From the IMG/VR virus record IMGVR_UViG_3300032167_000028: a stretch of DNA of 64,000 bases. One strand, written 5' to 3'. The first letter of the stretch is position 1; each line of letters opens with the position of its first letter. This stretch comes from a virus (Duplodnaviria > Heunggongvirae > Uroviricota > Caudoviricetes). Positions 15,732-28,765 of this stretch are shown one piece after another. Position numbers and translations under genes: made by a program. The notes under the pieces were generated by a model. It saw only the letters and a program-made list of their open reading frames with translations. It made no database searches and was not told the DNA's origin.

Positions 15732-15733
15732 AA

Positions 15734-15808: not shown

Positions 15809-15825
15809 ATAATAGGAGAGGTTAA

Positions 15826-16110: not shown

Positions 16111-16145
16111 TTAAGCTACTTCCTTTTCTATTATAATATTAGAAG

Positions 16146-16223
16146 TGGGGACGGAGGTGGGATTCGAACCCACGATTTCCAACTTATGAGGATGGCGAGA
16201 TGACCAGGCTTCTCTACTCCGCG
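16146..16223 (-). tRNA. trnM: tRNA-Met(CAT), initiator-like
   Basis: C1 mismatch, loop CTCATAA; anticodon stem lacks the three consecutive G-C pairs. Confidence 0.8.
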
Positions 16224-16349
16224 ATATAAAAAGATGAAAGGAAGGTTAGGAAATGTACATATATGAACAGGAGGAGAACAGCAGCATCGCAAGGAGAATT
16301 GTCCTTCCTTCATCTTATATAAATATTATAACAGTTTTTTTAGAAAAAG

Positions 16350-16808: not shown

Positions 16809-17365
16809 ACTTCATCTTCCTTTCTAATTGCAACAATATAGCCGCCTATAAGGTTACCCAAAACAACACATAACCAAAGGTGAATTTGTTTTAGATCAAC
16901 ATAAAACCAATCTGCAATAGAATGATTAAATCCTGCGAGAATAAAGGCAACCACACAAAGACTACTAACCCATAATGGAGTTTCTTTTTTTGTAGCAATT
17001 GTCATTAAAATTCCACAACCAATACCGGAACCAATGTAATGATACCACGGATAAATCCATTTATTTGATTGAATTATATCATATGTTTCTAAGATATCAT
17101 ATCGTTGGAATATTAAAAGTAAAAACATTGCAAGAGAAACACCTTGAATATTTCCTACCAATATTGATAATAGTTTTACCAAACTACACGAACCATTCTT
17201 AATATTTTGAATTTGTCCTGTATATAGAGATAATTTACATATTCGTATATATAACAAACCAATTGAAAAGAATAGTGCGGCCAAATAATTATTTGTGATA
17301 CTACAAGATAAAAGTGCGGCGAAACCTATTAGAAAGCCCGCCAATACTGATTTGTTATCATTCAT
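16805..17365 (-). CDS. formate/nitrite transporter (FNT)-like membrane protein
   Basis: LYTG, GNI.G, GIGCGILM, F...GFNHSIAD, LGNLIGG. Confidence 0.75.
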   Translation of the reverse strand: MNDNKSVLAGFLIGFAALLSCSITNNYLAALFFSIGLLYIRICKLSLYTGQIQNIKNGSCSLVKLLSILVGNIQGVSLAMFLLLIFQRYDILETYDIIQSNKWIYPWYHYIGSGIGCGILMTIATKKETPLWVSSLCVVAFILAGFNHSIADWFYVDLKQIHLWLCVVLGNLIGGYIVAIRKEDEV

Positions 17366-17386
17366 ATCATCACTTCTTTCATAAAA

Positions 17387-17460
17387 TGGCAGGGGTTATA
17401 AGATTCGAACTCATACGAGCGGTTTTGGAGACCGATATGCTACCATTACATCAAACCCCT
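17387..17460 (-). tRNA. trnW: tRNA-Trp(CCA)
   Basis: Cloverleaf, loop CTCCAAA. Confidence 0.92.
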
Positions 17461-17463
17461 AAA

Positions 17464-17537
17464 TGGAGTGTCTAACTGGATTCGAACCAGTGTATACGGA
17501 GTTGCAGTCCGCCGCCTAGCCACTCGGCAATAGACAC
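17464..17537 (-). tRNA. trnC: tRNA-Cys(GCA)
   Basis: Cloverleaf, loop CTGCAAC, U73. Confidence 0.92.
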
Positions 17538-18204
17538 ATATAAAAATGACGACCTAAGCCTTTTTGCCGTTAGAAAGCATTATCTTGTCGTCTGGGTGGG
17601 TGGATAAATATCGGACTCCGCCTTATCCGGAACTCTAAATCTAACTGAGCTATGACCCCAATCATTAATAGTGTTTTGGACGTATCCGGGGTAGGAGAAA
17701 ACCGATCAAAGTTTTCTTTAACACTCAACCTCAGTAAAAATGTAAGAGATTTGCCGGCTTACCGTCTGCTTTTACCTCACGTTCAGGTACTCTTACTGCG
17801 GGCTAAGCCCAACGTCACTTGGGAAACAACAGAACCGCATATCTGTACTCTACTTTCCAATGAAAGTAATTAACGTTGAGTAACTCCGTTTCACCGAAAA
17901 CAGTCGCTTAGGATTTTCACCCTATTTGCGGTTAATGACTCCGCCGTTTTTCATTCATACAGTTAGTTACTATTATTTTCATTATATCCAATTCACGGGC
18001 CTAATAATATTGATGTAACTACTTTGTATCTTTTAAACTATCTGCACCTATCACGATTACCCAATCGACATTTCTGTCCTTATGCCGGGCCAGCTGGCGT
18101 GCATTTTATTAAGCATAGCTATTATTTCAAGCCTATTGGTGTATCCGTTACAGGTCCCGCACTTTTCAGCCTGCTATTCAAGGGTTCGGGACGGATGGCT
18201 CCTT

Positions 18205-18280
18205 TGGTCTCCTGCACAGGATTTGAACCCGTATTCTGCGGTCCGTAGCCGCATGTTCTGTCCAGTTGAACTAACAAGAG
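18205..18280 (-). tRNA. trnR: tRNA-Arg(ACG)
   Basis: Cloverleaf, loop CTACGGA. Confidence 0.9.
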
Positions 18281-18352
18281 TTAATGTCGGACTACCCACT
18301 TCCCACCGACTCTAACGCACGCTCAATTTCGTGTCTGCGTCTCCCTTTTTTT

Positions 18353-18429
18353 GCGAGAACAACGAGAAAAGAATTCTTGTATAAAAGAAGATTTTAAGTC
18401 TTTTGAAGTATCTCTTCTCTCTGCATCGC
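18353..18429 (-). ncRNA. candidate Y-RNA 1 downstream of TROVE gene
   Basis: GCGATGCAG-stem-ATACTTCA...ATTCT-stem-TTCTCGC; bulged terminal helix; repeat of 18527-18651. Confidence 0.6.
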
Positions 18430-18444
18430 GAATGAAAACATAAA

Positions 18445-18520
18445 AAGAAACCACGGGCCGCGGCCCAACGGTACCGAACTCGACCAATCTGAATACAGAT
18501 TCCGTATAACGTGGTTTCTT
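18445..18520 (-). ncRNA. structured small RNA between the two Y-RNA candidates
   Basis: 11-bp terminal stem AAGAAACCACG/CGTGGTTTCTT with internal hairpins. Confidence 0.45.
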
Positions 18521-18526
18521 AAAATT

Positions 18527-18651
18527 GTGAGAATGTCATAGAGAGAATTTTTTTCTCCCTTGTTGTAGCCAACAAAGGTATTTTTGTTGAAATTCTTTGC
18601 AAATTCAAATAAATCTCATCATAAATGAAGTATCTCTCTATGCTGCATCAC
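18527..18651 (-). ncRNA. candidate Y-RNA 2, starting 10 nt after the TROVE stop codon
   Basis: GTGATGCAGC-ATAGAGAG-ATACTTCA...CTCTCTAT-GACATTC-TCAC. Confidence 0.6.
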
Positions 18652-18660
18652 AATACTTGT

Positions 18661-20316
18661 TCACTGCTTTTGCCTATTCTGGATTCCATCCCAGATTTCA
18701 GTATACGCCTTGGCAAACGAAGCTTCATTACCAGTCCATCCATAGAGAATCGCGCAGCGCTCAGCCATCTCCGGAATGAGAACATTGTCATATCCAGCAG
18801 TCTGGATAGAGAACACGTTCACCTTTGGATTGACCAAGCGACGATAATCCTGAATGAGCTTAAAGACGTTGATATAGCCAGTATATGCAAATCTGCTGTT
18901 GTCAACCGCATATGTCTTGCCATATTCTCTGCACTGCGTACTAGTGCCATATAGACCGCCGTGTCCAGCCTGCTGATCGGAATAAATAAAGATATTATCC
19001 CAATGCTCCTTATTGTTAATGGCATTCTTAAAGAATTCCCAAATGCCACCTTCAGTAGAGCCACCAACATCATTGTCGCCGCGCTTGGAGATTTCCTTTG
19101 CCTGAGACAATACGCCGCGACGCTTGGAGATTGGTGCAACCTTCAGTCTGTCGCCAAACTTGCCAACATAACCTTCATCAGAGCATGCGGCAGTAATAAC
19201 AGAGGAAAGATTGTCGATTTCAGCGACGCGAACAGAGCCATATTCACTGTTAACCGTACCCCAAGCTGAACCAGAGTTATCGGACAAACACATGGTTTTG
19301 CCCTTCAGCTTCGGATAATTGTCCATTGCAATATCCATGCACTCTTCAAGCGCATTGATAATAATAGGCTTGTGATTACATGAGCTGCTTTCAACCGCCT
19401 TGAGCGCAGAATAATAGCGGAACGGAAACTGCTTACCAGTCAGAACTCCGTCCTTCACTTTATTCATGTACTTCATGCAGAATGCAGAATCGTTCACTTC
19501 AGTGAAGACACCGCGAATATTGCGCAGCAGCGCCATGTGTCCCATGTCAATGGTGTCGAAGATTTCCTTCCAGGACTTACCTTGAGAGCGAAGATTCTCC
19601 CAAGTCTTCTGATCGGTATCAACAGCAATCGTACCGGTCTTCATCAGCTCGTCAATTACAGGAGAATTGGCATGACACAGACGCACCGCGTTAATCAAGC
19701 CAATTTCATGATTCTTATACTTTGCCAGATGATAGCGCTTTGAAGAAGAAATCTTCTTTGCCCAAGAACGCTTGAGAATAGACGGCATACGATTCTTTTT
19801 GCCGCTGTTCTTATACATGAAATATGCCATCTGGCTCATCGGTTCATCTGCACGAGACATCACAGTCTGGTTGATTTCGTCAAATACACCCGGATGCGTC
19901 TGCGTAAAATACTGACGCTTGGGATGCATGGCAGCTCTGACCATGATGACCTGCGGATTCAGACGCATATTGAAGTCCTTGCGAAGCGCGATCGCCCAAG
20001 CGAGTGTACCTTCAAAGTCATAATCCAGCGCCTTATCAATGGCAGCTTCCATGATCTGCTCGGTATTCATGCCATCGTATTTGCTCGGCATGATGGTAAA
20101 GCCCTTTACAAGCTTGTGCTCACAATATTTGCCGCTGCGCTTGCCGTCGCGATAATAAGACGGCTCACCGAAGATAGACGAAGCCGTGATCATCTTGAGC
20201 GTATCAAGGGGGTTAATCTTGTATGAATCGCCGCCCATAAAATTGGTAACGGTTTCATCAAGCCTAAGAGAATTCTGCTGATGCATCTCAGCAACTGCTT
20301 TAGACATCTTGCTCAT
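18661..20316 (-). CDS. TROVE-domain (Ro60/Rsr-like) RNA-binding protein with vWA domain
   Basis: NFMGG, FGEPSYY, HMALLRNIRG, GKQFPFRYYSA, CLSDNSGS (MIDAS), IYSDQQ; start taken at MSKMSK with GGAG RBS. Confidence 0.88.
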   Translation of the reverse strand: MSKMSKAVAEMHQQNSLRLDETVTNFMGGDSYKINPLDTLKMITASSIFGEPSYYRDGKRSGKYCEHKLVKGFTIMPSKYDGMNTEQIMEAAIDKALDYDFEGTLAWAIALRKDFNMRLNPQVIMVRAAMHPKRQYFTQTHPGVFDEINQTVMSRADEPMSQMAYFMYKNSGKKNRMPSILKRSWAKKISSSKRYHLAKYKNHEIGLINAVRLCHANSPVIDELMKTGTIAVDTDQKTWENLRSQGKSWKEIFDTIDMGHMALLRNIRGVFTEVNDSAFCMKYMNKVKDGVLTGKQFPFRYYSALKAVESSSCNHKPIIINALEECMDIAMDNYPKLKGKTMCLSDNSGSAWGTVNSEYGSVRVAEIDNLSSVITAACSDEGYVGKFGDRLKVAPISKRRGVLSQAKEISKRGDNDVGGSTEGGIWEFFKNAINNKEHWDNIFIYSDQQAGHGGLYGTSTQCREYGKTYAVDNSRFAYTGYINVFKLIQDYRRLVNPKVNVFSIQTAGYDNVLIPEMAERCAILYGWTGNEASFAKAYTEIWDGIQNRQKQ

Positions 20317-20332
20317 AATTGAGCTCCTTTCA

Positions 20333-20515
20333 TCAATAATTAGGTCTATACCAAGGTCCATCAAAAGAATCATCTACACACTGCGTAGCAAGACAACATG
20401 GACAGATCAGATAATCGACAGCTAAGCGAACCCTGCCGTCATTTCTTCGATCTTTAAACCACACTGGTTCCATTTGAACTCCACACTCATTGCATACAAT
20501 GTCAGCTAATGTCAT
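20333..20515 (-). CDS. small zinc-ribbon protein
   Basis: CNEC...CPCC; AGGAGG RBS. Confidence 0.55.
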   Translation of the reverse strand: MTLADIVCNECGVQMEPVWFKDRRNDGRVRLAVDYLICPCCLATQCVDDSFDGPWYRPNY

Positions 20516-20535
20516 AATGGTCCTCCTTATAAAAT

Positions 20536-20940
20536 TGGTGGAGATGACGGGAATCGAACCCGTGTCCAAATTACAAACCTTCAAAAACGTACTTACGCAA
20601 TAGTCATTGTTTCGAGTGTTCGATTGCTAACTGACAAAAAGCAATCATGGAAGCCAAACCCAATGACAGGTCATATCCATTTAAGGGTGCACTGAAGTGC
20701 CATCCACCACGCAGTTTAATTTGCCCGCAAACTGAGAAAACGGGTGTCGATATTCTATCTTTGATCCTCATATGCTTACCGAATATCAGGTGCATCATTT
20801 TGGAGGTCAGTCTCGCTTACGCGAGAGCGAAGACCGGAGTACGGAAAAAGTTGAGATTTATTCTCTGTCTTTGATCCTTAACGCGGATCATTCGTGCGTG
20901 TTCTTGCTTATTTGCAACCTGTCGAAACCAAAACATCCCC
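20536..20940 (-). ncRNA. ssrA: tmRNA
   Basis: 5' GGGGATGTTTTGGTTTCGACAGG; 3' GGTTCGATTCCCGTCATCTCCACCA; internal tag frame ending ...RTPVFALA-TAA. Confidence 0.93.
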
Positions 20941-21135
20941 ATAAAAGACGACCCGGAGCGAATCACAGAGTCGTCAGAGCAGAGCTAGTCATGCTCAGTG
21001 AGTCGTAGGCTTCATGCAACATCGCTCGGTGACTAGTGTAGCAATGCTAGTGGATATTGCGAATCAACCTTAAGCTGCGCTTATTGCTACGTTACGCAAC
21101 TAATGGGGTACGACGCTCCATTGCCCTCTGTGAGC

Positions 21136-21212
21136 TGGTCCGGGTGGAGGGATTCGAACCCCCGACTTCATGCTCCCAAAGCACGTGCGCTACCAAACTG
21201 CGCTATACCCCG
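21136..21212 (-). tRNA. trnP: tRNA-Pro(TGG)
   Basis: CGTGC TTTGGGA GCATG; two acceptor-stem mismatches. Confidence 0.85.
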
Positions 21213-21218
21213 ATAAAC

Positions 21219-21359
21219 AAGACACATTAGTTTTATTATTTACGCGCTCTAACCAACTGAGCTAATTCCCACACTCTAGTGGGAATATAGGACTCGAACC
21301 TACGACCTCGTGCTCCCTAAGCATTAATTAAACTTGAAAAGAATTGCTGTATGTGTCTT
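21219..21359 (-). ncRNA. CAGCAA-module RNA copy E carrying a permuted tRNA-Pro(AGG)-like body (YrlA-like order)
   Basis: AAGACACAT/ATGTGTCTT stem; GC-TTAGGGA-GCACG, T-arm, looped acceptor ATTCCCA/TGGGAAT, D-arm, CGT. Confidence 0.8.
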
Positions 21360-21373
21360 AACTTTATATTAAT

Positions 21374-21402
21374 ATTATATATTAAATTTTTATTTTTGTC
21401 AA
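21374..21402 (-). promoter_or_regulatory. sigma70-type promoter directly upstream of RNA copy E
   Basis: TTGACA-17-TATAAT. Confidence 0.85.
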
Positions 21403-21407
21403 AAAAC

Positions 21408-21520
21408 AAGACGCTGTAAATTGCATATGGGATTCGAACCCATGTAATTTTCTTGGAAGGAAAATGTCTTAACCACTTGACAAATGCTATTGAGTATTAC
21501 TCATTTGCTGAAAGCGTCTT
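21408..21520 (-). ncRNA. CAGCAA-module RNA copy F enclosing a complete tRNA-like cloverleaf (TCC anticodon, no CCA)
   Basis: AAGACGCT/AGCGTCTT stem; ATAGCAT..TGTC AAGTGGTTAA GACA TTTTC CTTCCAA GAAAA..ATGGG TTCGAAT CCCAT ATGCAAT. Confidence 0.75.
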
Positions 21521-21526
21521 AATAAA

Positions 21527-21724
21527 TTACCAACTTCTCAAGAGAGGAGCATCATGTGGCATTGAAACAAAATACGAACGCTTTTTACCACACTTAGGAC
21601 ACTCTTGAATTTCCGAAAGGCATTCATTCTTAACTCCGTCCATCCACTGAGAAAAACGATAAGAATCAATTGCCTGCCAATTGTGCCGGCAAAATAACTG
21701 TTGCAACTTTACCATGCACTTCAC
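21527..21724 (-). CDS. small hypothetical protein (LFCRHNW...CPKCGK, DUF1660-like)
   Basis: Motif similarity to phage FC.H.W proteins. Confidence 0.55.
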   Translation of the reverse strand: MKCMVKLQQLFCRHNWQAIDSYRFSQWMDGVKNECLSEIQECPKCGKKRSYFVSMPHDAPLLRSW

Positions 21725-21758
21725 TCCTTTGAAGTTTATATTTGCGGATCACTTCCGC

Positions 21759-22349
21759 TTAATAATCATAAGGAAGAAAATTATACTGCCAAGAGGGTTT
21801 ACGTTTCATGAAGTCATCAAAATTTCCAATTGAATTTTGATTATTTTCAAGAAAATCTCTAACTTGATGCTCTGCGTCATCATTAATAATAACAACTTTA
21901 GCCCAGTTACTTTCAGCAGTATGTTTAATTTGACTGGAAATAGAAGTATAAAAAGAAGTACCAATAATTAATAGAATGTCGTCTTTAGACAATCTATCAA
22001 CAATGTCTAATGCTTCTGTATATTTAGGGGCAGAATCACCATAAAGAACTACGTTATTTTTTTCAGCGTTACCGTGAACCTCAACAACATATTGAGAACC
22101 GGCACGATTATGAAGCCCATCAATATTCATAGTAATTACTGGAATATTATATTCAGCAAGTGCTTTATGAGCGTCATTGGGTTCTGCGACTTTGCAAGTA
22201 TCAATAAGCTGCTGCATAATTTTATTAAATTCTTTACGATGATGAGTAGCAAAATAACGATCTAATTTAGTTCTTAGATCACCTTGTTCATCAAAAGTGG
22301 GAATGCCGCTTGCCTTACTAATTCCTGCACCAGTAAAAGCGATAATCAT
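21759..22349 (-). CDS. Sir2/CobB-family NAD-dependent deacylase
   Basis: FTGAGIS..SGIPTF, ITMNIDGLH..AG, EVHG, IGTS. Confidence 0.9.
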   Translation of the reverse strand: MIIAFTGAGISKASGIPTFDEQGDLRTKLDRYFATHHRKEFNKIMQQLIDTCKVAEPNDAHKALAEYNIPVITMNIDGLHNRAGSQYVVEVHGNAEKNNVVLYGDSAPKYTEALDIVDRLSKDDILLIIGTSFYTSISSQIKHTAESNWAKVVIINDDAEHQVRDFLENNQNSIGNFDDFMKRKPSWQYNFLPYDY

Positions 22350-22469
22350 AGTTCTTTCTCTCTCCTTTTATTTGGAACGATAGAGGGAACCGAAGCCATT
22401 AAGACCGTCGTACATAATGCTAAATTTGTGGAATTGTATATCCTAGGTGGATTTCCGACCCCATATCGT

Positions 22470-22546
22470 TGGTCGGGCATTTTGGAATCGAACCAAAGAC
22501 CTCTGCGTTATCAGCACAGCGCTCTAACCGTCTGAGCTAATGCCCG
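22470..22546 (-). tRNA. trnI: tRNA-Ile(GAT)
   Basis: Cloverleaf, loop CTGATAA. Confidence 0.92.
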
Positions 22547-22721
22547 ATAAATGCCTACAACAACCGACAAGTAGGACTTTTAAAAATGGGTTCGCCTGCA
22601 ATGGTAAGGCGACTATCTGCCCCGACGGTTTCCACTACTCTCCATAGTTAATTTTACTTCGCCTGCTAGGCCAGGCATTATCAGATAGTTCAAAGTGTTT
22701 TAATGGATAACACATAACCAT

Positions 22722-22797
<76 letters not shown>

Positions 22798-22806
22798 ATA
22801 TGCGGC

Positions 22807-23037
22807 TTAGCCGCTGTAATAGACATAATTGTAAACAATACCACCAACGCTAGAGGTTAAATCTTCAATCGCATCGTCTTCATATACATATGTCCAGCCA
22901 TAAGAATTGCAAGCATTAGAAACATCCTGCTCTTTGTAATCGGCAATATATTCATTTGCTTTTTCTGCGGACATAGCTGCAATCAAAGCAAAACCGCCAT
23001 AACAATTACCAGGATTCATGTGATATACTTTATACAT
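22807..23037 (-). CDS. hypothetical protein
   Basis: Start MYKVYH with GGAG RBS. Confidence 0.55.
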   Translation of the reverse strand: MYKVYHMNPGNCYGGFALIAAMSAEKANEYIADYKEQDVSNACNSYGWTYVYEDDAIEDLTSSVGGIVYNYVYYSG

Positions 23038-23503
23038 TATGTTCTCCTCCATAATAATCAGCAATGGGGGCTGGTACAAAACGCTTAATTGAAAACTTAT
23101 TTTCAATTAAACCGCGTACCATAGTAGAAGAAATATTGTATACAGCAGGAAGAAAAACCGTTGGAATAGTGGCATTTAAATAACGATTAGCATCGTTAAT
23201 TTCTAGCTCATATTCATAATCAGCACGATTTCTAATGCCACGAATGATACAATCACAATTTAATTCTTCGGCTTTCTCAATAGTAAGGTTGTCATAAGAA
23301 ACAATCTCACAATTAGAAATTCCTTCAAGTTCTAAAGTTTTCTTGATTAAAGATGCCATTGGAGCAGAATGAAAACGTGATTTTCGTGGATTTCTTCCAA
23401 TACCAATATATACTTTATCAAACAACTTAGATGCAATTTTTACTACATAAAGATGTCCATTTGTAAAAGGATCAAAAGAACCGGGATAAAAAGCTGTACT
23501 CAT
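23030..23503 (-). CDS. coaD: phosphopantetheine adenylyltransferase (CoaD)-like nucleotidyltransferase
   Basis: YPGSFDPFTNGH, IIRGIR...DYEYEL, ISSTMVR. Confidence 0.88.
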   Translation of the reverse strand: MSTAFYPGSFDPFTNGHLYVVKIASKLFDKVYIGIGRNPRKSRFHSAPMASLIKKTLELEGISNCEIVSYDNLTIEKAEELNCDCIIRGIRNRADYEYELEINDANRYLNATIPTVFLPAVYNISSTMVRGLIENKFSIKRFVPAPIADYYGGEHNV

Positions 23504-23506
23504 TTA

Positions 23507-23779
23507 TTACTTATCCTCATCATCATAATATTCACCATGCTGGCAGTGTTTACATTGATCATCAAGCTCTTCGGGAAGTTTATCACCGTATAGCTCATAA
23601 TACCACTCTCTATCATAGCGATAAATATAAGCTGGATCATGAATACAATGCATTTCATTAAACTTACAAGTCGGATTATATGGCTTATAATAATTATAAT
23701 AGTGTTTATATGCCGGATTGCGCGTACAATCTTTACACAGATTTTCATCTGCAACACAATCATTACAAGCTCGTGCCAT
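23507..23779 (-). CDS. Cys-rich hypothetical protein
   Basis: Multiple CxxC. Confidence 0.55.
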   Translation of the reverse strand: MARACNDCVADENLCKDCTRNPAYKHYYNYYKPYNPTCKFNEMHCIHDPAYIYRYDREWYYELYGDKLPEELDDQCKHCQHGEYYDDEDK

Positions 23780-23805
23780 TTATATTCGCTCCTTTTGATT
23801 ACATA

Positions 23806-23890
23806 TGGTGGGGCACGAGGGACTTGAACCCTCACGTTATAAAACACTAGAACCTAAATCTAGCGTGTCTGCCAATTCCACCAGCACCCC
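23806..23890 (-). tRNA. trnL: tRNA-Leu(TAG)
   Basis: Class II, loop TTTAGGT. Confidence 0.92.
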
Positions 23891-24027
23891 ATAATGTGGT
23901 TCCTTGGCCTAGGATACCACTTACCCAACACTTTCCTTGAATCTGACCCCGAAGCTTCTGTTATATTCACTGGGCGGTAGTTGTGTCACCGGATAGTTTT
24001 TAATGGCTTTGACACTATCAAAACCGC

Positions 24028-24110
24028 TGGTGCAGATAGAGAGATTTGAACTCTCACGCTTTAGGCACAGCAACCTCAATGCTGCGTGTCTGCCATTCCA
24101 CCATATCTGC
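24028..24110 (-). tRNA. trnL: tRNA-Leu(GAG)
   Basis: Class II, loop TTGAGGT. Confidence 0.92.
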
Positions 24111-24545
24111 TTAGGTATGTCTCTTTCCTTCTATTTTTTGAATAGAATGACAATTTGGACACAATATTTGTAAATTATTTAATTCGTTATTAAAATGATT
24201 TCCATCTTTATGATGAAGTTCTAATGTTAGAGGTTCACCCAACCATTCAGATAATCCACATAATTCACATTCTTGTTTCTTTATGTTTTCTCTAAATAAT
24301 TTTTCTTTAAGAACAGAAGATTTAATATATTTTTCAGTACCAAAATATTCATAAGCTGATTTATAACAACTTGTAGTTCTACCAACTTTACTCTATTGAC
24401 CCTCATACTTAATTCCCATTTTTTCTAAATAAGAATTTAAAGTATGTTGTTTACATTTAAGTTGCTAACTTATCCAAACTTTAGGTTTTTGTTCTTGAAT
24501 CCACTAAAGAATTTCCTCTTTACGTTCTAAAATATCTGTTCTCAT
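24111..24545 (-). CDS. HNH homing endonuclease (3 in-frame TAG), missing from the ORF track
   Basis: ATG 24545 to TAA 24111; CELCG...LELHHKDGNHFNNELNNLQILCPNCH. Confidence 0.85.
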
Positions 24546-24565
24546 AAAATCACCTTAAAACAAAA

Positions 24566-24651
24566 TGGTGGGAGAGGTAGGAATCGAACCTACGGTGTTT
24601 CTTTGTGGGGGATTTACAGTCCCTTGCCCTCGCCGCTAGGCATACTCTCCC
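24566..24651 (-). tRNA. trnY: tRNA-Tyr(GTA)
   Basis: Class II, loop CTGTAAA. Confidence 0.92.
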
Positions 24652-24976
24652 ATATATTAGCATATCTACACCCTGAACTTAATCAGGCTCAAGCATTCCC
24701 GCCTCACACGTCCTCGATATGCCGCACTTTGGTAAGCACCAAATATGTTGCGTAGTCTACTTGCAACCTAACCACGACTAATATTATCCGACTTTCACGG
24801 AACACCCTTCGGTTGTCGCCCACCTTCTGGAATTGGCTTAACCCTTAACTATTCACCACTCAAGTTAAGTATAGGAGTCACTCCACCGTTTCTAGTTTAG
24901 GTCGAAACGCTTTTCTCATACGCAAAATACCTGGGCCTCAGTTATGATTCCTGCTAGCGAAAGCATAACTTCTAGC

Positions 24977-25052
24977 TGGTGCGAAGTGACGGACTCGAAC
25001 CGCCGACCCTCTGCTTGTAAGGCAGATGCTCTCCCAACTGAGCTAACCTCGC
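24977..25052 (-). tRNA. trnV: tRNA-Val(TAC)
   Basis: Cloverleaf, loop CTTACAA. Confidence 0.93.
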
Positions 25053-25338
25053 ATAAAAGAATAGATGAAGTTCGATTACAAGCTAGGCACGCGGCCAGAC
25101 GGAAGTTCATCTCGTCCATAACTCTCCCAATCCGCATCTATTCTGTAATAGGCTGTGAAAACGGAAGGAACACAGCTTTAGAGGGTTTAAGTACCTCTTT
25201 CTTCCAGATGGTACCATTTCTGGCGTAATCTCCGTTACATCGACGTATTTTGTTGACCTTTGCGACTTGACTTTATCAAGTATTCAACAGGATTGAAACG
25301 TCTCCAAACCTACGGATGCCAACCCGCTGCTCCGGCAT

Positions 25339-25413
25339 TGGTGGCTTGGGTTGGTAACGATCCAACCTATGTGGATTTTCAGTCCACTGCTAATCCGTCT
25401 CAGCTACCAAGCC
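25339..25413 (-). tRNA. trnF: tRNA-Phe(GAA), non-canonical T-loop ATCGTTA
   Basis: GTGGA CTGAAAA TCCAC; paired acceptor; CCA. Confidence 0.82.
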
Positions 25414-25419
25414 ATATAG

Positions 25420-25495
25420 TGGTGCGGGATTAGGGATTCGAACCCTAGGCTTACTGATTAAGAGTCAGCTACTCTACCAGCTGAGTTAATCCCGC
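25420..25495 (-). tRNA. trnK: tRNA-Lys(CTT)
   Basis: Cloverleaf, loop CTCTTAA. Confidence 0.92.
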
Positions 25496-25500
25496 GAACC

Positions 25501-25566
25501 AAGGCAGAATTATAATCTTTAGATCCACAAACTTCTAAATATAATTTGAATTGCTGAACCTGCCTT
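25501..25566 (-). ncRNA. CAGCAA-module small RNA, copy K (short)
   Basis: AAGGCAG-GTT-CAGCAAT ... CTGCCTT; internal TTTAGA/TCTAAA hairpin. Confidence 0.65.
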
Positions 25567-25569
25567 ATA

Positions 25570-25899
25570 TTATTGAAACATTTCACAAACGCTTTCAGGG
25601 TCGTTGGTGTCGTTATACAAACGTTCACATTCTTCGACAGAAGTAGCTTTAGGAAGAGGAATAGTGTCCCAAGCATAATGTTCTAAGACAAAATCTCCTA
25701 ATTCCTCTTCGTCCAAATCTTCAAAGCCTTCAAGATATTCATCTTCAAGACCATAGGAAGAAATTAACGAATCACACATTTCCTGAGCTGTGGCAATAAG
25801 ACTCTCATCTTCTTCACTCTCAGCTTCAATGAAACCCCATTCTTCTATCCCATGATAACCACCGTAAACATCTTCATAGGCATGAATTGCGTAAATCAT
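25570..25899 (-). CDS. acidic hypothetical protein
   Basis: GAGG RBS; Glu/Asp-rich. Confidence 0.6.
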   Translation of the reverse strand: MIYAIHAYEDVYGGYHGIEEWGFIEAESEEDESLIATAQEMCDSLISSYGLEDEYLEGFEDLDEEELGDFVLEHYAWDTIPLPKATSVEECERLYNDTNDPESVCEMFQ

Positions 25900-25916
25900 A
25901 ACAACATCCTCTCAAA

Positions 25917-26003
25917 TGGTGGGGATAGTGGGACTCGAACCCACACGACTTCGCAGTCAGCGGATTTTAAGTCCGCGTCGTCTGCCAGTTCCGACATAAC
26001 CCC
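25917..26003 (-). tRNA. trnL: tRNA-Leu(TAA)
   Basis: Class II, loop CTTAAAA. Confidence 0.92.
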
Positions 26004-26023
26004 GTTTCTTATCTTGTATATAT

Positions 26024-26052
26024 ATTATACATTGTTTTTTGAAATTTGTCAA
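26024..26052 (-). promoter_or_regulatory. sigma70-type promoter
   Basis: TTGACA-17-TATAAT. Confidence 0.8.
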
Positions 26053-26061
26053 TTTTTTTAA

Positions 26062-26153
26062 TGGCGTAGCCCCTGGGACTTGAACCCAGACACCGTTTCA
26101 CCGATTACTGCTCGCTTTCCAAGCGAGTGCCTTACCATTAGGCTTAGGGCTAC
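26062..26153 (-). tRNA. trnS: tRNA-Ser(GGA)
   Basis: Class II, loop TTGGAAA. Confidence 0.9.
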
Positions 26154-26313
26154 ATAAATTCTAACACTCTTTAAGATTCTCTGTTAGATGAACTACGAGA
26201 TGCTTACTTACCGAAATACTCATGCACTTTCCTTCGGTTCGTCTGATTAAAATCCAGTAATACCGCGGTCTGTTAATATAACACCGCTATGGAACTTTCT
26301 CACACTTGGATTC

Positions 26314-26406
26314 TGGCGGAGCCGGAGAGACTCGAACTCTCGCACCGGTTTTACCCGATCTGGCGGTTTAGCAAACCGCTCCCTTCACCGACTTGGGTAC
26401 AGCTCC
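26314..26406 (-). tRNA. trnS: tRNA-Ser(GCT)
   Basis: Class II, loop TTGCTAA. Confidence 0.92.
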
Positions 26407-26409
26407 ATA

Positions 26410-26485
26410 TGGTACGGGAACTGGGAATCGAACCCAGATTGTAGATTTAGAAGACCTATGCCCTTATCCTTTAGACTATTCCCGC
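26410..26485 (-). tRNA. trnR: tRNA-Arg(TCT)
   Basis: Cloverleaf, loop CTTCTAA. Confidence 0.88.
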
Positions 26486-26496
26486 GTAGTCAAAAA

Positions 26497-27100
26497 AAAG
26501 GATAATTTGTTTAATAAATCACTAGACTTTCGCCTTACCCCAATAATTCTTCTAACATATTCAGGCACCGAGGAAATAAGACTGAGCATAAAGGAGCGAC
26601 CGATATACTTCTTACCCCAAGAGGTTTCCCTCTCAATTCTCGTATGGGACTGACTACCCAATACCTTTCACCAATCATTCAGTAAAAGAAATCAATTTGT
26701 ATTTAATACTAACAACTAATTAAACAAAACTTGATAACTTACCGTCTTAGGCTACTTAGACTTTAAACCAATCTTATAGGACATTTCTATCCATCACGAC
26801 GAATCTGCTTATTGGCTTTTCCAAGGTTTGCCACAGTCACCAGCTAAGACCTAACTTGGATTCGTTGCGGAGTTACCCGCCCTTCTATTACGCAGACGAT
26901 TGGAATAATCCCTTTGTTAGCGAACACCAGAGCACATCCTCTTAACATTAGAAGTTTCTTCATATCGCATAACATCACTGTTTCTGCGGCCGCGTTTTAT
27001 GGCTATCGTCATAAAACGTATGACTGTTGTACGAGGATTCTCAGCACGTTGATTAGACGCTCTGCACTGAGTTAATCATTTATTAAACAAATTATCCTTT
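26497..27100 (-). ncRNA. large (~600 nt) structured ncRNA candidate, ROOL-like
   Basis: Perfect 23-bp inverted repeat at the two ends (26497-26519 / 27078-27100), own promoter at 27117-27145, U-tract after the 3' arm, internal GNRA hairpins, no credible ORF. Confidence 0.6.
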
Positions 27101-27116
27101 CTTTAGATTATAATTA

Positions 27117-27145
27117 ATTATAACCTAATTTTTTGAAAAAGTCAA
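27117..27145 (-). promoter_or_regulatory. promoter for the large ncRNA
   Basis: TTGACT-17-TATAAT. Confidence 0.75.
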
Positions 27146-27155
27146 ATTTTCAAAC

Positions 27156-27277
27156 TAGACGTCTTTATAAGGGTTGGACTCGAACCAACGACACATAGAT
27201 TATCAATCTATTGCTCTAACCAATTGAGCTACCCAGCCTGTTAATGGTGGCTGCACACTATTTGCTGAAAACGTCTA
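27156..27277 (-). ncRNA. CAGCAA-module RNA copy G carrying a permuted tRNA-Ile(GAT) (break in acceptor 3' strand)
   Basis: TAGACGT/ACGTCTA stem; CAGCC-ACCA-linker-GGCTGGG-D arm-ATAGA TTGATAA TCTAT-T arm-CC. Confidence 0.78.
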
Positions 27278-27309
27278 AACAAAGTCGGTGAGACAACCTA
27301 ACCGACAAC

Positions 27310-27385
27310 TGGAGCCCTCGATAGGAATTGAACCTACAACCTGCGCATTACAAGTGCGCTGCTCTGCCAATTGAGCCACGAGGGC
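27310..27385 (-). tRNA. trnT: tRNA-Thr(TGT)
   Basis: Cloverleaf, loop CTTGTAA. Confidence 0.92.
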
Positions 27386-27396
27386 ATTAATATTTC

Positions 27397-27473
27397 TAGG
27401 CAGTTTAATCAATCGCTGTTTTTCCAAAATAAAAACTACATTTGAATTAATAAAATTTTGCTGTATCTGCCTA
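27397..27473 (-). ncRNA. CAGCAA-module small RNA, copy I (short)
   Basis: TAGGCAG-ATA-CAGCAAA ... CTGCCTA. Confidence 0.62.
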
Positions 27474-27505
27474 TACCAAATTAACGCCAATTAATTTATA
27501 TCTGT

Positions 27506-27580
27506 TGGGGACCGTAGAGAGAATCGAACTCTCAACATCAGAACCACAATCTGAGGTTTTGCCATTAAACTATACGGAAC
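27506..27580 (-). tRNA. trnH: tRNA-His(GTG)
   Basis: Loop TTGTGGT, G-1/C73; upper acceptor pairs imperfect. Confidence 0.85.
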
Positions 27581-27687
27581 ATAACCGGCTATTACGGGAG
27601 GCCCTAAGGTGGACCCGCGTGATTTCCACATTTGTGCGATGCCGCTTATGTAAGCATCACACAGTCGTCTTCATTGATCAGATGAAG

Positions 27688-27764
27688 TGGCGATGCGTAC
27701 GGGACTTGAACCCGTGACCCCTAGCGTGACAGGCTAGTATTCTGACCAGCTGAACTAACGCACC
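27688..27764 (-). tRNA. trnD: tRNA-Asp(GTC)
   Basis: Cloverleaf, loop CTGTCAC. Confidence 0.92.
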
Positions 27765-27777
27765 ATACGCGGCTTGA

Positions 27778-28242
27778 TTAATCAAGCCATAAATACTCAG
27801 GAGTAAGATTAAAATTGGAATCAAGCTCATACTCATAAAAATTCAAATTATTTTGATTCAAATAGTGATTAATGCGGCCCTCTTTTGAACCATTTAGAAT
27901 ATCATTTTTTTCATATCCTATAATACGAATTTTATGAGTATATTCTTCTTCGACACGAAGCGTAGCTTTACGTTTTCTACGAATAGCGAGCATTTTTTCA
28001 CGATCACCATTCTCTTTAGCAAGACGTTCTTCTTTAAGAAGCTCTTCACTATCTTTATGAAAAACTTTACGTTCCTCGATCAACTGTTTAATTCGTTCAT
28101 CGCATAGCCGCAAAGTTTTTTCATCATCTTGCTTGACGGTTTCATACAAAGTTTCAAGAAATTTCTTCTTTCCTTCTTCAGTATAAATTCCAATGTTATA
28201 ACTATCTTCATAGTTAAACTTTTCGAGAAGCCATACTTTCAT
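27778..28242 (-). CDS. hypothetical coiled-coil protein
   Basis: Start MKVWLL with AAGGA RBS (the longer track ORF overlaps tRNA-Glu). Confidence 0.6.
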   Translation of the reverse strand: MKVWLLEKFNYEDSYNIGIYTEEGKKKFLETLYETVKQDDEKTLRLCDERIKQLIEERKVFHKDSEELLKEERLAKENGDREKMLAIRRKRKATLRVEEEYTHKIRIIGYEKNDILNGSKEGRINHYLNQNNLNFYEYELDSNFNLTPEYLWLD

Positions 28243-28261
28243 GAAATCATCCTTTCTGAGT

Positions 28262-28336
28262 TGGCAGCCTGTAGGAGAGTCGAACCCCTGATTCTGCCTT
28301 GAAAGGGCAGCGTCTTGACCGCTTGACAAACAGGCT
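28262..28336 (-). tRNA. trnE: tRNA-Glu(TTC)
   Basis: Cloverleaf, loop CTTTCAA. Confidence 0.92.
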
Positions 28337-28567
28337 ATAATTATGGTGTGGGTTTACCACTCACTGCTGCCATATCAGCGCCCATTGCATGGGAATTATT
28401 CACATCTTCCACCTTTGCGAAAGGTCGTCGAGAGTTACTTCGCTTCTTTATATCCCCTTTTCCGCTAGCCACATATCAAAAAGATCATAACCTTGCACAT
28501 CTTATTGCCAGTGGTAGTTTACTCTCAAATCCGTGTTAAGGGTTGCATCATTGCGGAGGCGATGCAT

Positions 28568-28642
28568 TGGCGGGTACGGTAGGACTCGAACCTACAACCT
28601 ACCGGTTAACAGCCGGTGGCTCTGCCATTGAGCTACGCACCC
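28568..28642 (-). tRNA. trnN: tRNA-Asn(GTT)
   Basis: Cloverleaf, loop CTGTTAA. Confidence 0.93.
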
Positions 28643-28663
28643 ATTTCTTAACCTTATGTATAT

Positions 28664-28692
28664 ATTATATACTAATTTTTTAAAATTGTCAA
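28664..28692 (-). promoter_or_regulatory. sigma70-type promoter
   Basis: TTGACA-17-TATAAT. Confidence 0.8.
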
Positions 28693-28701
28693 TTTATTTT
28701 C

Positions 28702-28765
28702 AAGACCCAATTTCATATAGTATCACTTTTGCAAAGTAAAGAAATTAAATTGCTGTCAGGGTCTT
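28702..28765 (-). ncRNA. CAGCAA-module small RNA, copy H (short, anticodon-like GCA hairpin)
   Basis: AAGACCC-TGA-CAGCAAT ... GGGTCTT; internal TTACT TTGCAAA AGTGA. Confidence 0.65.

What the first reader, a model, noticed from the sequence alone, without database searches (positions are those of the whole stretch)
27156..27277. Copy G: permuted tRNA-Ile(GAT) broken inside the acceptor 3' strand, with an internal CCA
Seen: CAGCC-ACCA, a 6-nt linker, then GGCTGGG, a perfect D-arm, ATAGA-TTGATAA-TCTAT, the T-arm and CC. Joining the final CC to the leading CAGCC gives CCCAGCC-A-CCA, the exact complement of GGCTGGG. All parts of a functional tRNA are therefore present in permuted order. The breakpoint (67/68) differs from copies C, D and E. 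Inference: the handle can be inserted at many points of a circular tRNA, which argues for a circular precursor or a recombinational origin rather than one fixed-site intron.
Basis: partly seen in the sequence, partly recalled or inferred. Interest (0 to 1): 0.8.

Follow-up and report, generated by a model that had tools for sequence, protein, structure and literature searches.

The report
Permuted tRNA-Ile mimic on Y-RNA handle
A gut or rumen phage encodes a small RNA holding every part of an isoleucine tRNA in shuffled order, clamped by a conserved "handle"; it is most likely a tRNA mimic that docks onto a phage Ro60-like ring protein rather than a tRNA gene that must be circularised.

Summary
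On the minus strand, 27277 to 27156, a 7-bp terminal helix (TAGACGT/ACGTCTA) and a CAGCAA motif enclose CAGCC-A-CCA, a 6-nt linker, then a tRNA body from G1 to C67. Rejoining CC to CAGCC gives a perfect 77-nt tRNA-Ile(GAU) cloverleaf that ARAGORN calls only after de-permutation.

The handle (W-AGRC-N5-CAGCAA plus its 3' complement) marks about 10 RNAs in this window and hundreds in other phages. All lie on the strand of a DUF2828 gene, whose predicted fold is Ro60 (TROVE plus vWA). Most copies carry no tRNA, or only part of one. This phage also has an ordinary tRNA-Ile(GAT).

Copy G is therefore best read as a Y-RNA-like tRNA mimic, closest to YrlA. It is unusual in keeping the whole anticodon arm and an encoded A-CCA, and in attaching the handle at acceptor position 67/68. 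Its CCA-spacer-G1 junction looks like a tRNA-dimer junction, which fits the published dimeric-tRNA origin model.

A circular precursor or true splicing is neither shown nor excluded; no RNA data could be obtained.

The scan's index shows it had noted the CAGCAA-handle family before on other DNA.

The parts
27271..27277 (-). Handle 5' arm TAGACGT (W-AGRC-NN). It pairs with 27156-27162 and can extend to about 10 bp with one bulge.
27262..27267 (-). Conserved CAGCAA motif, at the fixed 5-nt distance from AGAC.
   Evidence: 9 matches to AGRC-N5-CAGCAA in the window, all on the minus strand, against 0.10 expected; 163 matches in 80 DUF2828 loci, all on the gene's strand.
27254..27261 (-). 8-nt spacer ATAGTGTG between the handle motif and the acceptor 3' fragment.
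   Evidence: y = 8.
27245..27253 (-). Acceptor 3'-strand fragment C68-C72 (CAGCC), discriminator A73 and an encoded CCA.
27239..27244 (-). 6-nt linker TTAACA between CCA and G1. Together with A-CCA it forms the 10-nt loop that closes the acceptor stem. It is the predicted RNase P leader.
   Evidence: RNase P cleavage is inferred from M. smegmatis YrlA (PMC4201824).
27171..27238 (-). tRNA-Ile-like body G1 to C67: acceptor 5' strand GGCTGGG, D arm, anticodon arm with loop TTGATAA (anticodon GAT at 27202-27204), variable loop, T arm, and C66-C67.
   Evidence: Rfam tRNA 53.4 bits; ARAGORN after de-permutation.
27163..27170 (-). 8-nt spacer TTATAAAG between C67 and the handle 3' arm.
   Evidence: z = 8.
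27156..27162 (-). Handle 3' arm ACGTCTA.
28664..28692 (-). Consensus promoter (TTGACA-17-TATAAT, 12/12). It is the likely start of the unit tRNA-Asn ... His, element 27397-27473, tRNA-Thr, copy G.
   Evidence: Co-transcription is inferred.
27117..27145 (-). Promoter (11/12) directly after copy G that drives the ROOL RNA (26505-27095). It marks the end of copy G's unit.
61908..63422 (-). DUF2828/DUF7788 gene (505 aa) with a predicted Ro60 fold (TROVE-like ring plus vWA with a MIDAS DxSxS motif). It is the proposed protein partner of the handle.
   Evidence: Association with the handle.
18661..20316 (-). Second Ro60-like gene (TROVE, 551 aa), inside the tRNA and handle array. It is not associated with the handle in other phages.
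   Evidence: Relatives lack handles nearby. None was found in 31 handle-bearing contigs.
14266..28765 (-). The other nine handle elements: 28702-28765, 27397-27473, 25501-25566, 21408-21520, 21219-21359, 15605-15731, 15327-15439, 14603-14661 and 14266-14354.

Best explanation
Copy G is one member of a multi-copy family of small phage RNAs built like Y RNAs. In this family a terminal 5'/3' helix plus a single-stranded CAGCAA motif (the handle) forms the docking module, most likely for the phage's DUF2828-type Ro60-fold protein. The enclosed cargo is the effector module. In copy G the cargo is an almost perfect tRNA-Ile(GAU) mimic in circularly permuted order. Its acceptor end is closed by a 10-nt loop (A-CCA-TTAACA), and the handle leaves the acceptor stem between positions 67 and 68.

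Proposed course:
1. It is transcribed as the last item of a polycistronic tRNA unit (inferred).
2. It is freed by the nucleases that mature the neighbouring tRNAs (inferred).
3. It folds into a tRNA L-shape with a protruding handle (supported by folding).
4. The handle binds the Ro60-like ring (inferred from gene-RNA co-occurrence).
5. RNase P may cut 5' of G1 and exonucleases may trim TTAACA back to CCA, leaving two halves held together by the handle and five acceptor pairs. This is inferred by analogy with M. smegmatis YrlA; the stability was computed.
6. The tRNA-shaped module brings a tRNA-binding factor (a nuclease such as PNPase, a tRNA-targeting toxin, a repair enzyme or IleRS) to the ring, as part of the RNA-repair island of this phage (speculative).

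It is not a gene for a decoding tRNA that needs circularisation. The permuted order most likely arose from a tandem tRNA-Ile dimer.
For: Anatomy and fold:
- The sequence and parts are as described.
- The RNAfold centroid keeps the handle, the CAGCC/GGCTG hairpin and the D, anticodon and T arms.
- After a cut at G1, the two halves still pair in silico with a ddG of -16.7 kcal/mol.

Family:
- The window has 9 matches to AGRC-N5-CAGCAA against 0.10 expected, all on the minus strand.
- A 245-kb IMG/VR phage has 10 copies on one strand and 0 for the control pattern.
- Thirty-one other viral contigs have 1-12 copies each.
- A terminal complement of at least 7 nt is present in 77% of copies, against 10% at random positions.

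Cargo is interchangeable:
- Some copies have no tRNA features, some have T-arm-first YrlA-like modules, and some hold normal-order tRNA-like sequences.

Protein link:
- The DUF2828 model's 13 best PDB matches are all Ro60/TROVE proteins over the whole length, E 4e-9 to 2e-5.
- The MIDAS DxSxS motif is invariant.
- 23 of 31 handle-bearing contigs encode DUF2828, including 9 of 9 that are at least 90% complete.
- In 80 DUF2828 loci there are 163 motifs on the gene's strand, 0 on the other strand and 0 for the control pattern; 60 of 80 loci have at least one element.
- In several genomes an element lies about 50-60 nt upstream of the gene.

Redundancy:
- Regular tRNA-Ile(GAT) is present at 22470-22546.
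- The other anticodon-bearing handle RNAs also duplicate regular isoacceptors.

Precedent:
- YrlA RNAs are tRNA mimics described as resembling circularly permuted tRNAs.
- M. smegmatis YrlA is cut by RNase P and gains CCA in vivo.
- A dimeric-tRNA origin has been proposed (PMC4201824; bioRxiv 10.1101/312249).
- Phage Ro60 binds Y-like RNAs that have a 5'/3' stem plus a CGAA motif (PMC12135203).

Context:
- The window is an RNA-repair island: RNA ligase, Thg1, HAD_SAK_2, a PNK-like kinase, phosphoesterases, NADAR and tmRNA.
Against: - No binding or expression data exist. The handle-DUF2828 link rests on co-occurrence and strand bias among phages that may share ancestry, so the counts are not independent events.
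- In this window the DUF2828 gene is 34.6 kb from copy G.
- Copy G is more tRNA-like than a mimic needs to be: 7/7 Watson-Crick acceptor pairs, a canonical 7-nt anticodon loop with U33 and A37, A73 and an encoded CCA.
- N73-CCA followed by a 3-8 nt linker recurs in 19 of 36 well-formed permuted copies. That is far above the 1/64 chance rate and suggests selection for a usable 3' end.
- The phage encodes a healing-and-sealing enzyme set that could in principle ligate RNA ends.
- The handle motif differs from the YrlA motif GNCGAA, and Rfam's YrlA model does not reach threshold (17.2 bits against 69).
Confidence: 0.68

Rival explanations
1. Copy G is a true circularly permuted tRNA-Ile gene. The handle brings the ends together, an endonuclease removes it, a ligase (phage Rnl-type or host RtcB) joins C67 to C68 to give a circle, and RNase P plus 3' trimming open it at the CCA-TTAACA-G1 site to give a normal tRNA.
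For: All parts are perfect after de-permutation. CCA is encoded, as in 31 of 33 tRNA genes of this window. An RNA ligase, a PNK-like kinase and phosphoesterases are encoded nearby. Linear tRNAs with a closed handle-type hairpin plus a CAGCAA-type motif as an insert exist: window 59318-59432 (CTGCAA) and 59433-59570, and L047 2744-2859.
Against: - No bulge-helix-bulge is present: the helix is 7-10 bp and the spacers are 8 and 17 nt.
- No splicing endonuclease or RtcB was found among 40 ORFs scanned.
- The same handle encloses non-tRNA cargo, modules without an anticodon arm, and whole normal-order tRNA-like sequences, for which excision and ligation make no sense.
- A regular tRNA-Ile(GAT) already exists.
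- The copies of the same architecture in other phages have no unambiguous canonical N73-CCA, and some have degenerate anticodon loops.
Confidence: 0.08
2. Copy G acts as a two-piece, chargeable tRNA-like RNA. RNase P opens the acceptor loop, trimming exposes CCA, IleRS charges it, and the handle-bound Ro60-like protein carries an aminoacylated tRNA mimic, comparable to tmRNA or viral tRNA-like structures.
For: Copy G has a 7-bp acceptor stem, A73, CCA and an intact GAU anticodon loop. The two halves are predicted to stay paired. M. smegmatis YrlA is cut by RNase P and completed to CCA in vivo (PMC4201824). N73-CCA is enriched across the family, in 19 of 36 well-formed permuted copies.
Against: Charging has not been shown for any Y RNA. 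A helix leaving the 3' strand at 67/68 lies in the part of the tRNA that, from general knowledge, EF-Tu and synthetases contact. Most family members lack an anticodon arm or a CCA. A15-C48 in place of a standard Levitt pair and U4-A69 in place of C4-G69 depart from E. coli tRNA-Ile identity elements (read from the sequence; the identity rules are from general knowledge).
Confidence: 0.15
3. Copy G is a decaying remnant of two tandem tRNA-Ile genes with no function of its own. The flanking inverted repeat would be accidental or a DNA-level feature, such as a mobile-element end.
For: The CCA + 6 nt + G1 junction looks like a tandem tRNA junction.
Against: Every stem is intact. The region is identical in a second sample's contig that is 99.9% identical overall, though that is too close to test selection. 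The arms differ between copies while pairing is kept, which fits an RNA helix and not conserved transposon ends. The motif shows strict strand bias and is linked to a protein gene across many phages.
Confidence: 0.05

Closest known systems
YrlA of Mycobacterium smegmatis (Y RNA bound by Rsr/Ro60; Chen et al. 2014, PMC4201824)
   Same: Both have a terminal 5'/3' stem with a conserved 5'-strand motif, a tRNA-like module in permuted order and a 7-bp acceptor stem closed by a loop. In YrlA that loop is cut by RNase P, the 5' half ends in CCA, and the halves stay together on the protein.
   Different: The YrlA motif is GNCGAA(N0-1)G, not CAGCAA. In YrlA the T arm precedes the D arm and the Ro60-binding stem replaces the anticodon arm; copy G keeps a full anticodon arm and the handle leaves the acceptor stem at 67/68. 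In copy G the CCA is fully encoded. The likely partner is a DUF2828-type Ro60 paralogue, not a TROVE-family Rsr.
Salmonella YrlA tRNA-like domain (PDB 6cu1; bioRxiv 10.1101/312249) and the dimeric-tRNA origin model (Sim and Wolin 2018, as cited there)
   Same: It is described as resembling a circularly permuted tRNA with a closed acceptor stem and is proposed to derive from a dimeric tRNA transcript. Copy G's CCA-spacer-G1 junction is what that model predicts.
   Different: Salmonella YrlA has a 6-bp acceptor stem, no CCA and no anticodon loop, and is not cut by RNase P.
Ro60 of Thermus phage phiLo with Yrl1/Yrl2 (PMC12135203; PDB 9kop, 9l5y)
   Same: It is a phage-encoded Ro60 ring with phage-encoded Y-like RNAs: a 5'/3' stem plus a short conserved motif next to it. 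It is the best structural match of the window's DUF2828 protein.
   Different: It has a CGAA motif, two RNAs next to the gene and no tRNA array. Sequence identity to the DUF2828 protein is 14-15%.
Circularly permuted tRNA genes of Cyanidioschyzon merolae and some archaea (Soma et al. 2007, as cited in 10.1101/312249)
   Same: The 3' part of the tRNA is encoded upstream of the 5' part and joined by a short linker at the acceptor end, and leader and trailer pair with each other.
   Different: Those genes use a bulge-helix-bulge motif, the splicing endonuclease and a ligase to make a circle, and they give the cell's only copy of that tRNA. Here there is no bulge-helix-bulge, no endonuclease was found, the isoacceptor is redundant, and the same handle carries non-tRNA cargo.
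Class I RNAs of dictyostelid amoebae (PMC7919456)
   Same: They have a short stem joining the 5' and 3' ends, a conserved 11-nt motif right after the 5' stem strand, and a variable remainder. From memory the motif ends in ACAGCAA. This lead came from earlier notes of this scan.
   Different: They are eukaryotic, 42-65 nt long, without tRNA-like cargo, and their known binding protein is an RRM protein. The motif letters could not be checked in the text held, so this is a lead, not a test.

Membership tests
YrlA-type Y RNAs (Rfam RF02553) | Reaches the family's covariance-model gathering score | tested here: not met
   17.2 bits against a gathering score of 69, E 0.34. Copy E scores 32.5 bits.
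YrlA-type Y RNAs (Rfam RF02553) | 5' and 3' ends paired in a terminal stem | tested here: met
   A 7-bp perfect helix, extendable to 10 bp.
YrlA-type Y RNAs (Rfam RF02553) | GNCGAA(N0-1)G / CGAA motif near the 5' end | tested here: not met
   CAGCAA stands at the equivalent place. The motif definition is from PMC4201824.
YrlA-type Y RNAs (Rfam RF02553) | tRNA-like module with T and D arms and a closed acceptor stem | tested here: met
   Rfam tRNA 53.4 bits over model positions 6-65. The acceptor is closed by a 10-nt loop.
YrlA-type Y RNAs (Rfam RF02553) | T arm 5' of the D arm, with the protein-binding stem in place of the anticodon arm | tested here: not met
   In copy G the D arm comes first, the anticodon arm is intact and the handle leaves at 67/68.
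YrlA-type Y RNAs (Rfam RF02553) | Encoded near, and on the strand of, a Ro60 orthologue | tested here: met
   The TROVE gene lies 6.8 kb downstream on the same strand, and the DUF2828 Ro60-fold gene 34.6 kb away on the same strand. Across phages, 163 of 163 motifs are on the DUF2828 strand.
YrlA-type Y RNAs (Rfam RF02553) | Physically bound by Ro60 | not testable with these tools
   Needs a pull-down or a gel-shift assay.
CAGCAA-handle Y-like RNAs (not matched by any Rfam 15 family here; noted repeatedly by this scan) | W-AGRC-N5-CAGCAA-W at the 5' end | tested here: met
   T-AGAC-GTTTT-CAGCAA-A at 27277-27261.
CAGCAA-handle Y-like RNAs (not matched by any Rfam 15 family here; noted repeatedly by this scan) | The 3' end is the exact complement of the copy's own 5' arm (6-10 nt), and arms differ between copies | tested here: met
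   TAGACGT/ACGTCTA. Family-wide, 77% have arms of at least 7 nt against 10% at random positions.
CAGCAA-handle Y-like RNAs (not matched by any Rfam 15 family here; noted repeatedly by this scan) | Lies in a phage tRNA array on the strand of a DUF2828 Ro60-fold gene | tested here: met
Circularly permuted tRNA genes (C. merolae / archaeal type) | 3' part upstream of the 5' part, joined at the acceptor end by a short linker | tested here: met
   CAGCC-A-CCA, TTAACA, then G1.
Circularly permuted tRNA genes (C. merolae / archaeal type) | Bulge-helix-bulge motif (3-nt bulge, 4-bp helix, 3-nt bulge) at the junction of leader and trailer | tested here: not met
   A 7-10 bp helix with spacers of 17 nt (5' side, including CAGCAA) and 8 nt (3' side).
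Circularly permuted tRNA genes (C. merolae / archaeal type) | tRNA splicing endonuclease and a ligase available | tested here: inconclusive
   No tRNA-intron endonuclease or RtcB was found among 40 window ORFs, but an Rnl-type RNA ligase is present. No whole genome is held for this window.
Circularly permuted tRNA genes (C. merolae / archaeal type) | Circular intermediate and colinear mature tRNA | not testable with these tools
Functional tRNA-Ile(GAU) | Canonical cloverleaf, 7-nt anticodon loop, A73 and CCA | tested here: met
   Met only after de-permutation.
Functional tRNA-Ile(GAU) | Continuous acceptor 3' strand with free 5' and 3' ends in the primary transcript | tested here: not met
   ARAGORN finds no gene in the native order.
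Functional tRNA-Ile(GAU) | Fills a decoding need of the genome | tested here: not met
   A regular tRNA-Ile(gat) lies at 22470-22546 and tRNA-Ile(tat) at 58096-58172.

The most novel reading that the evidence does not exclude
Copy G and the other CCA-bearing handle RNAs may be real permuted or split tRNAs of a bacterial virus. RNase P would open the encoded A-CCA loop, and the RNA would be charged with isoleucine. It would act either as a two-piece tRNA tethered to a Ro60-like ring, or, after the phage's healing-and-sealing enzymes remove the handle, as a colinear tRNA. This would be the first permuted or split tRNA maturation pathway outside archaea and eukaryotes.
Probability: 0.12. Interest if true: 0.9.

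Novelty: new variant of a known kind. Interest (0 to 1): 0.55.

Why it matters
Bacterial Y RNAs of the YrlA type are thought to descend from tRNA dimers and to mimic tRNA, but the described examples have lost the anticodon loop and mostly the CCA end. Copy G looks like a little-changed intermediate: a complete tRNA-Ile, CCA included, already wired to a Y-RNA-type handle. It gives a concrete substrate for three tests:
- whether RNase P opens such mimics;
- whether they can be charged;
- what the tRNA-shaped module recruits.

It also belongs to a large family of phage RNAs that matched no Rfam 15 family here and that I found in no searched paper. The family is linked to a DUF2828-type Ro60-fold protein inside tRNA and RNA-repair islands, which points to a virus-encoded Ro60/Y-RNA particle involved in the conflict over tRNA integrity.

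Tried and rejected
- Megablast of 26400-28000 against GenBank phages gave no match.
- An exact 28-mer of copy G was not found in IMG/VR.
- The search for related loci with the TROVE protein in IMG/VR found no pattern match.
- Contigs of TROVE relatives at 76-82% identity (L001, L003, L004) have tRNAs and tmRNA beside the gene but no AGRC-N5-CAGCAA element within 10 kb. I therefore dropped the idea that the TROVE protein is the handle's partner.
- Contigs carrying the identical TROVE protein are the same phage, and copy G is identical there, so they give no covariation.
- Searching the window's own genome failed because none is held.
- A sequence search of the DUF2828 protein against PDB chains gave nothing; only the fold search worked.
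- A literature search for DUF2828 gave only unrelated plant and tardigrade papers.
- The metagenome pattern scan gave 56 hits. Eleven passed the arm-complement filter, and four of those (three distinct elements: L025, L047, L063 = L067) are real handle elements.
- A DNA transposon or MITE reading was rejected, because the arms differ between copies while pairing is kept.
- A promoter reading of AGRC-N5-CAGCAA was rejected, because it does not explain the 3' complement.
- Small self-cleaving ribozymes were considered from memory of their cores. There was no resemblance and no Rfam hit.
- A 7-nt complement between TTAGACG at copy G's 5' end and 27053-27059 inside ROOL was judged to be chance.
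Full report
**1. What is there**

Read on the minus strand from 27277 to 27156, the 122-nt element has these parts in order:
- a 5' arm TAGACGT, then TTT;
- the motif CAGCAA and an 8-nt spacer;
- CAGCC-A-CCA and the 6-nt linker TTAACA;
- a tRNA body from GGCTGGG through a perfect D arm, the anticodon arm ATAGA-TTGATAA-TCTAT, a 5-nt variable loop, the T arm and CC;
- a second 8-nt spacer and the 3' arm ACGTCTA.

Rfam's tRNA model matches only its positions 6-65, at 53.4 bits. ARAGORN sees nothing in the native order. When the body is joined to CAGCC-A-CCA, ARAGORN calls a 77-nt tRNA-Ile(gat) with seven Watson-Crick acceptor pairs, A73 and CCA. A blind scan over all rotations and trimmings picks the same solution, with the break at 67/68. 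The string CAGCCACCA-N6-GGCTGGG is unique in the window and never appears in shuffles.

**2. The element belongs to a family**

- The pattern AGRC-N5-CAGCAA occurs 9 times in the window against 0.10 expected, always on the minus strand and inside the tRNA array. A tenth copy has N4.
- Each copy ends with the complement of its own 5' arm.
- Cargo differs between copies. Five copies show no tRNA features by eye or in the ARAGORN rotation scan (28702-28765, 27397-27473, 25501-25566, 14603-14661, 14266-14354). One holds a normal-order tRNA-Gly(TCC)-like sequence without CCA (21408-21520). Four hold permuted tRNA-like modules with different breakpoints (E, 15605-15731, 15327-15439 and G).
- The same handle occurs in a 245-kb IMG/VR phage: 10 copies on one strand and none for the control pattern.
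- It also occurs in 31 further viral contigs and in metagenome contigs.
- Arms of at least 7 nt are found in 77% of motif occurrences, against 10% at random positions in the same loci.
- Arms differ in sequence while pairing is kept, which points to an RNA helix rather than to transposon ends.

**3. The likely protein partner**

The window encodes two Ro60-like proteins. One is a weak TROVE match in the middle of the array (18661-20316). The other is a DUF2828/DUF7788 protein (61908-63422).

- An AlphaFold model of the DUF2828 protein was built from 22 sequences (pLDDT 78). Its 13 best PDB matches are all Ro60/TROVE proteins over the whole length: Thermus phage phiLo Ro60, Deinococcus Rsr, and Xenopus and human Ro60, with E from 4e-9 to 2e-5. 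The MIDAS motif is invariant.
- DUF2828 is present in 23 of 31 handle-bearing contigs, and in 9 of 9 that are at least 90% complete. The TROVE-type protein was found in none of them.
- Relatives of the TROVE protein have no handles nearby.
- In the reverse direction, 80 DUF2828 loci taken from IMG/VR (1.46 Mb) hold 163 handle motifs, all on the gene's strand. There are none on the other strand and none for the control pattern. Sixty of the 80 loci have at least one complete element within 10 kb.
- In several genomes an element sits about 50-60 nt upstream of the gene. There it is a permuted tRNA-Tyr(GTA)-like module with an A-CCA-CTATAT loop.

This is the pattern known for Ro60 and its Y RNAs, which lie near the gene on the same strand (PMC4201824). 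The phages may share ancestry, so these counts are not independent events, and binding itself is not shown.

**4. How copy G compares with the rest of the family**

- ARAGORN found a junction-spanning tRNA-like fold in 53 of 145 unique elements (10 from this window, the rest from the DUF2828 loci) after rotating the cargo, and a normal-order one in 6.
- Among the 36 with at least 6 of 7 acceptor pairs, 23 break in the anticodon arm or loop. That is the YrlA topology, in which the handle stands where the anticodon stem would be.
- Breaks in the acceptor 3' strand are rare. Most of those copies also admit a normal-order reading, because a leader hairpin duplicates the acceptor 3' strand.
- Purely permuted copies of copy G's type exist in other phages: L082 (Ile TAT), L063 (both near 67/68), L081, L096, L025 and L047. 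They keep the acceptor pairing with other sequences. None has an unambiguous canonical N73-CCA (L063 admits an alternative CCA reading), and some have degenerate anticodon loops.
- Over the whole family, N73-CCA followed by a 3-8 nt linker is present in 19 of the 36 well-formed permuted copies. That is far above the 1/64 chance rate.
- In this window 31 of 33 ordinary tRNA genes encode CCA, and tandem tRNAs are separated by 3-6 nt. The CCA-TTAACA-G1 junction therefore looks like the junction of a tRNA dimer.

**5. Mechanism**

A consensus promoter at 28692-28664 and another at 27145-27117 bracket a unit that ends with tRNA-Thr and copy G. ROOL RNA has its own promoter.

The RNAfold centroid keeps the handle, the acceptor hairpin and the three arms. 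The designed cloverleaf-plus-handle structure is 7 kcal/mol above the minimum free energy, which is usual for unmodified tRNA sequences. If RNase P cuts 5' of G1 and the linker is trimmed to CCA, the two halves are still predicted to pair, with a ddG of -16.7 kcal/mol.

That course is documented for M. smegmatis YrlA. It has a 7-bp acceptor stem, is cut by RNase P in vivo and in vitro, gains CCA, and stays on Rsr as two halves (PMC4201824). The YrlA structure paper describes these RNAs as resembling circularly permuted tRNAs, cites a dimeric-tRNA origin, and raises possible further processing (bioRxiv 10.1101/312249). Phage phiLo Ro60 binds Y-like RNAs with a terminal stem and a CGAA motif and assembles with host PNPase (PMC12135203).

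I therefore read copy G as a Y-like RNA whose effector module is a full tRNA-Ile mimic. What the module recruits is unknown. The surrounding genes suggest tRNA damage control: an Rnl-type RNA ligase, Thg1, HAD_SAK_2, a PNK-like kinase, phosphoesterases, NADAR, an RNase T-like exonuclease, PhoH-PIN and tmRNA.

**6. Why not a true permuted tRNA gene**

- There is no bulge-helix-bulge.
- No splicing endonuclease or RtcB was found among 40 ORFs scanned.
- The isoacceptor is redundant, since a regular Ile(gat) lies at 22470-22546. The same holds for Gly(tcc), Phe(gaa) and Tyr(gta).
- The handle also encloses cargo for which excision and ligation would be pointless.

Even so, the reading is not excluded. 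Copy G is more tRNA-like than a mimic needs to be, CCA is enriched in the family, and ligation enzymes are at hand. I give it 8%, and 15% to a chargeable two-piece form.

**7. Novelty**

The concept of Y RNAs that are permuted tRNA mimics, in phages too, is published. Two things are new:
- The handle variant (CAGCAA in place of CGAA) is tied to a DUF2828-type Ro60 paralogue. It matched no Rfam 15 family, and I found it in no paper I could search.
- Copy G has its own topology: an intact anticodon arm, an encoded A-CCA, and a handle attached at 67/68.

Notes of this scan, consulted after my own analysis, show that the CAGCAA-handle family with a Ro60-like protein had already been noted on many other genomes. 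I treat that as agreement, not as evidence. Those notes also point to the Class I RNAs of dictyostelids, which share the stem-plus-motif plan (PMC7919456). I could not verify the motif letters in the text held.

Noticed in passing
window 26505-27095 (-): A full-length ROOL RNA (337 bits) lies directly downstream of copy G with its own near-consensus promoter at 27145-27117. TTAGACG at copy G's 5' end has a 7-nt complement at 27053-27059 inside ROOL, which is probably chance.
   Followed up: partly
window 18661-20316 (-) and 61908-63422 (-): One phage encodes two different Ro60-like proteins, a TROVE type and a DUF2828 type. Only the DUF2828 type tracks the CAGCAA handle in other phages. The partner RNAs of the TROVE type were not identified; tmRNA (20536-20940) lies immediately upstream of it.
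   Followed up: partly
window 59318-59432 and 59433-59570 (-); L047 2744-2859 (-): These are linear tRNA-like genes (Asn-like and Tyr-like here) that carry an internal hairpin followed by CTGCAA or CAGCAA. In L047 the hairpin is a closed version of the handle (GTGTC-TACA-GGCAC, then GAA-CAGCAA). They are topologically equivalent to the permuted copies.
   Followed up: partly
L125, L126, L127 (IMG/VR phages G004, G030, G019): A permuted tRNA-Tyr(GTA)-like handle RNA has a long variable arm and an A-CCA-CTATAT acceptor loop. It sits about 50-60 nt upstream of the DUF2828 gene in these three phages, and the same motif (AGACCTTAACAGCAA) lies at the same distance upstream of the gene in three more genomes.
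   Followed up: partly
L083, L092, L094, L101, L109, L118 and others: In these handle RNAs ARAGORN accepts both a normal-order and a permuted reading, because a leader hairpin duplicates the acceptor 3' strand. They may be evolutionary intermediates of permutation, or a structural switch.
   Followed up: no
L128 261-about 360 (+): This handle element seems to hold only the 3' half of a tRNA-Ile(GAT)-like sequence (anticodon loop, T arm, acceptor 3' strand, G-CCA), just upstream of a DUF2828 gene.
   Followed up: no
window 16350-16808, 40105-41312, 42107-45391, 51134-53535 (-): The window holds a dense RNA-repair gene set: HAD_SAK_2, Metallophos plus an AAA_33 kinase, an RNase T-like exonuclease, Thg1, NADAR and an Rnl-type RNA ligase with a PHA02142 OB domain. 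SIR2 and NMN-adenylyltransferase-like genes lie inside the tRNA array.
   Followed up: no
window 55755-55849 (-): ARAGORN reports a 95-nt tRNA with an undetermined 2-nt anticodon (ta) and no CCA. Rfam scores it 53.9 bits. It was not examined.
   Followed up: no
window 27278-27309 (-): The 32 nt between tRNA-Thr and copy G form a hairpin (GTCGGT, loop, ACCGAC) followed by TTTGTT. It could be a weak terminator or a processing hairpin; the terminator scan did not report it.
   Followed up: no
L004 13140-13308 (+); L018 16779-16843 (-): RAGATH-36 and RAGATH-18 RNAs lie in the tRNA regions of related phages.
   Followed up: no
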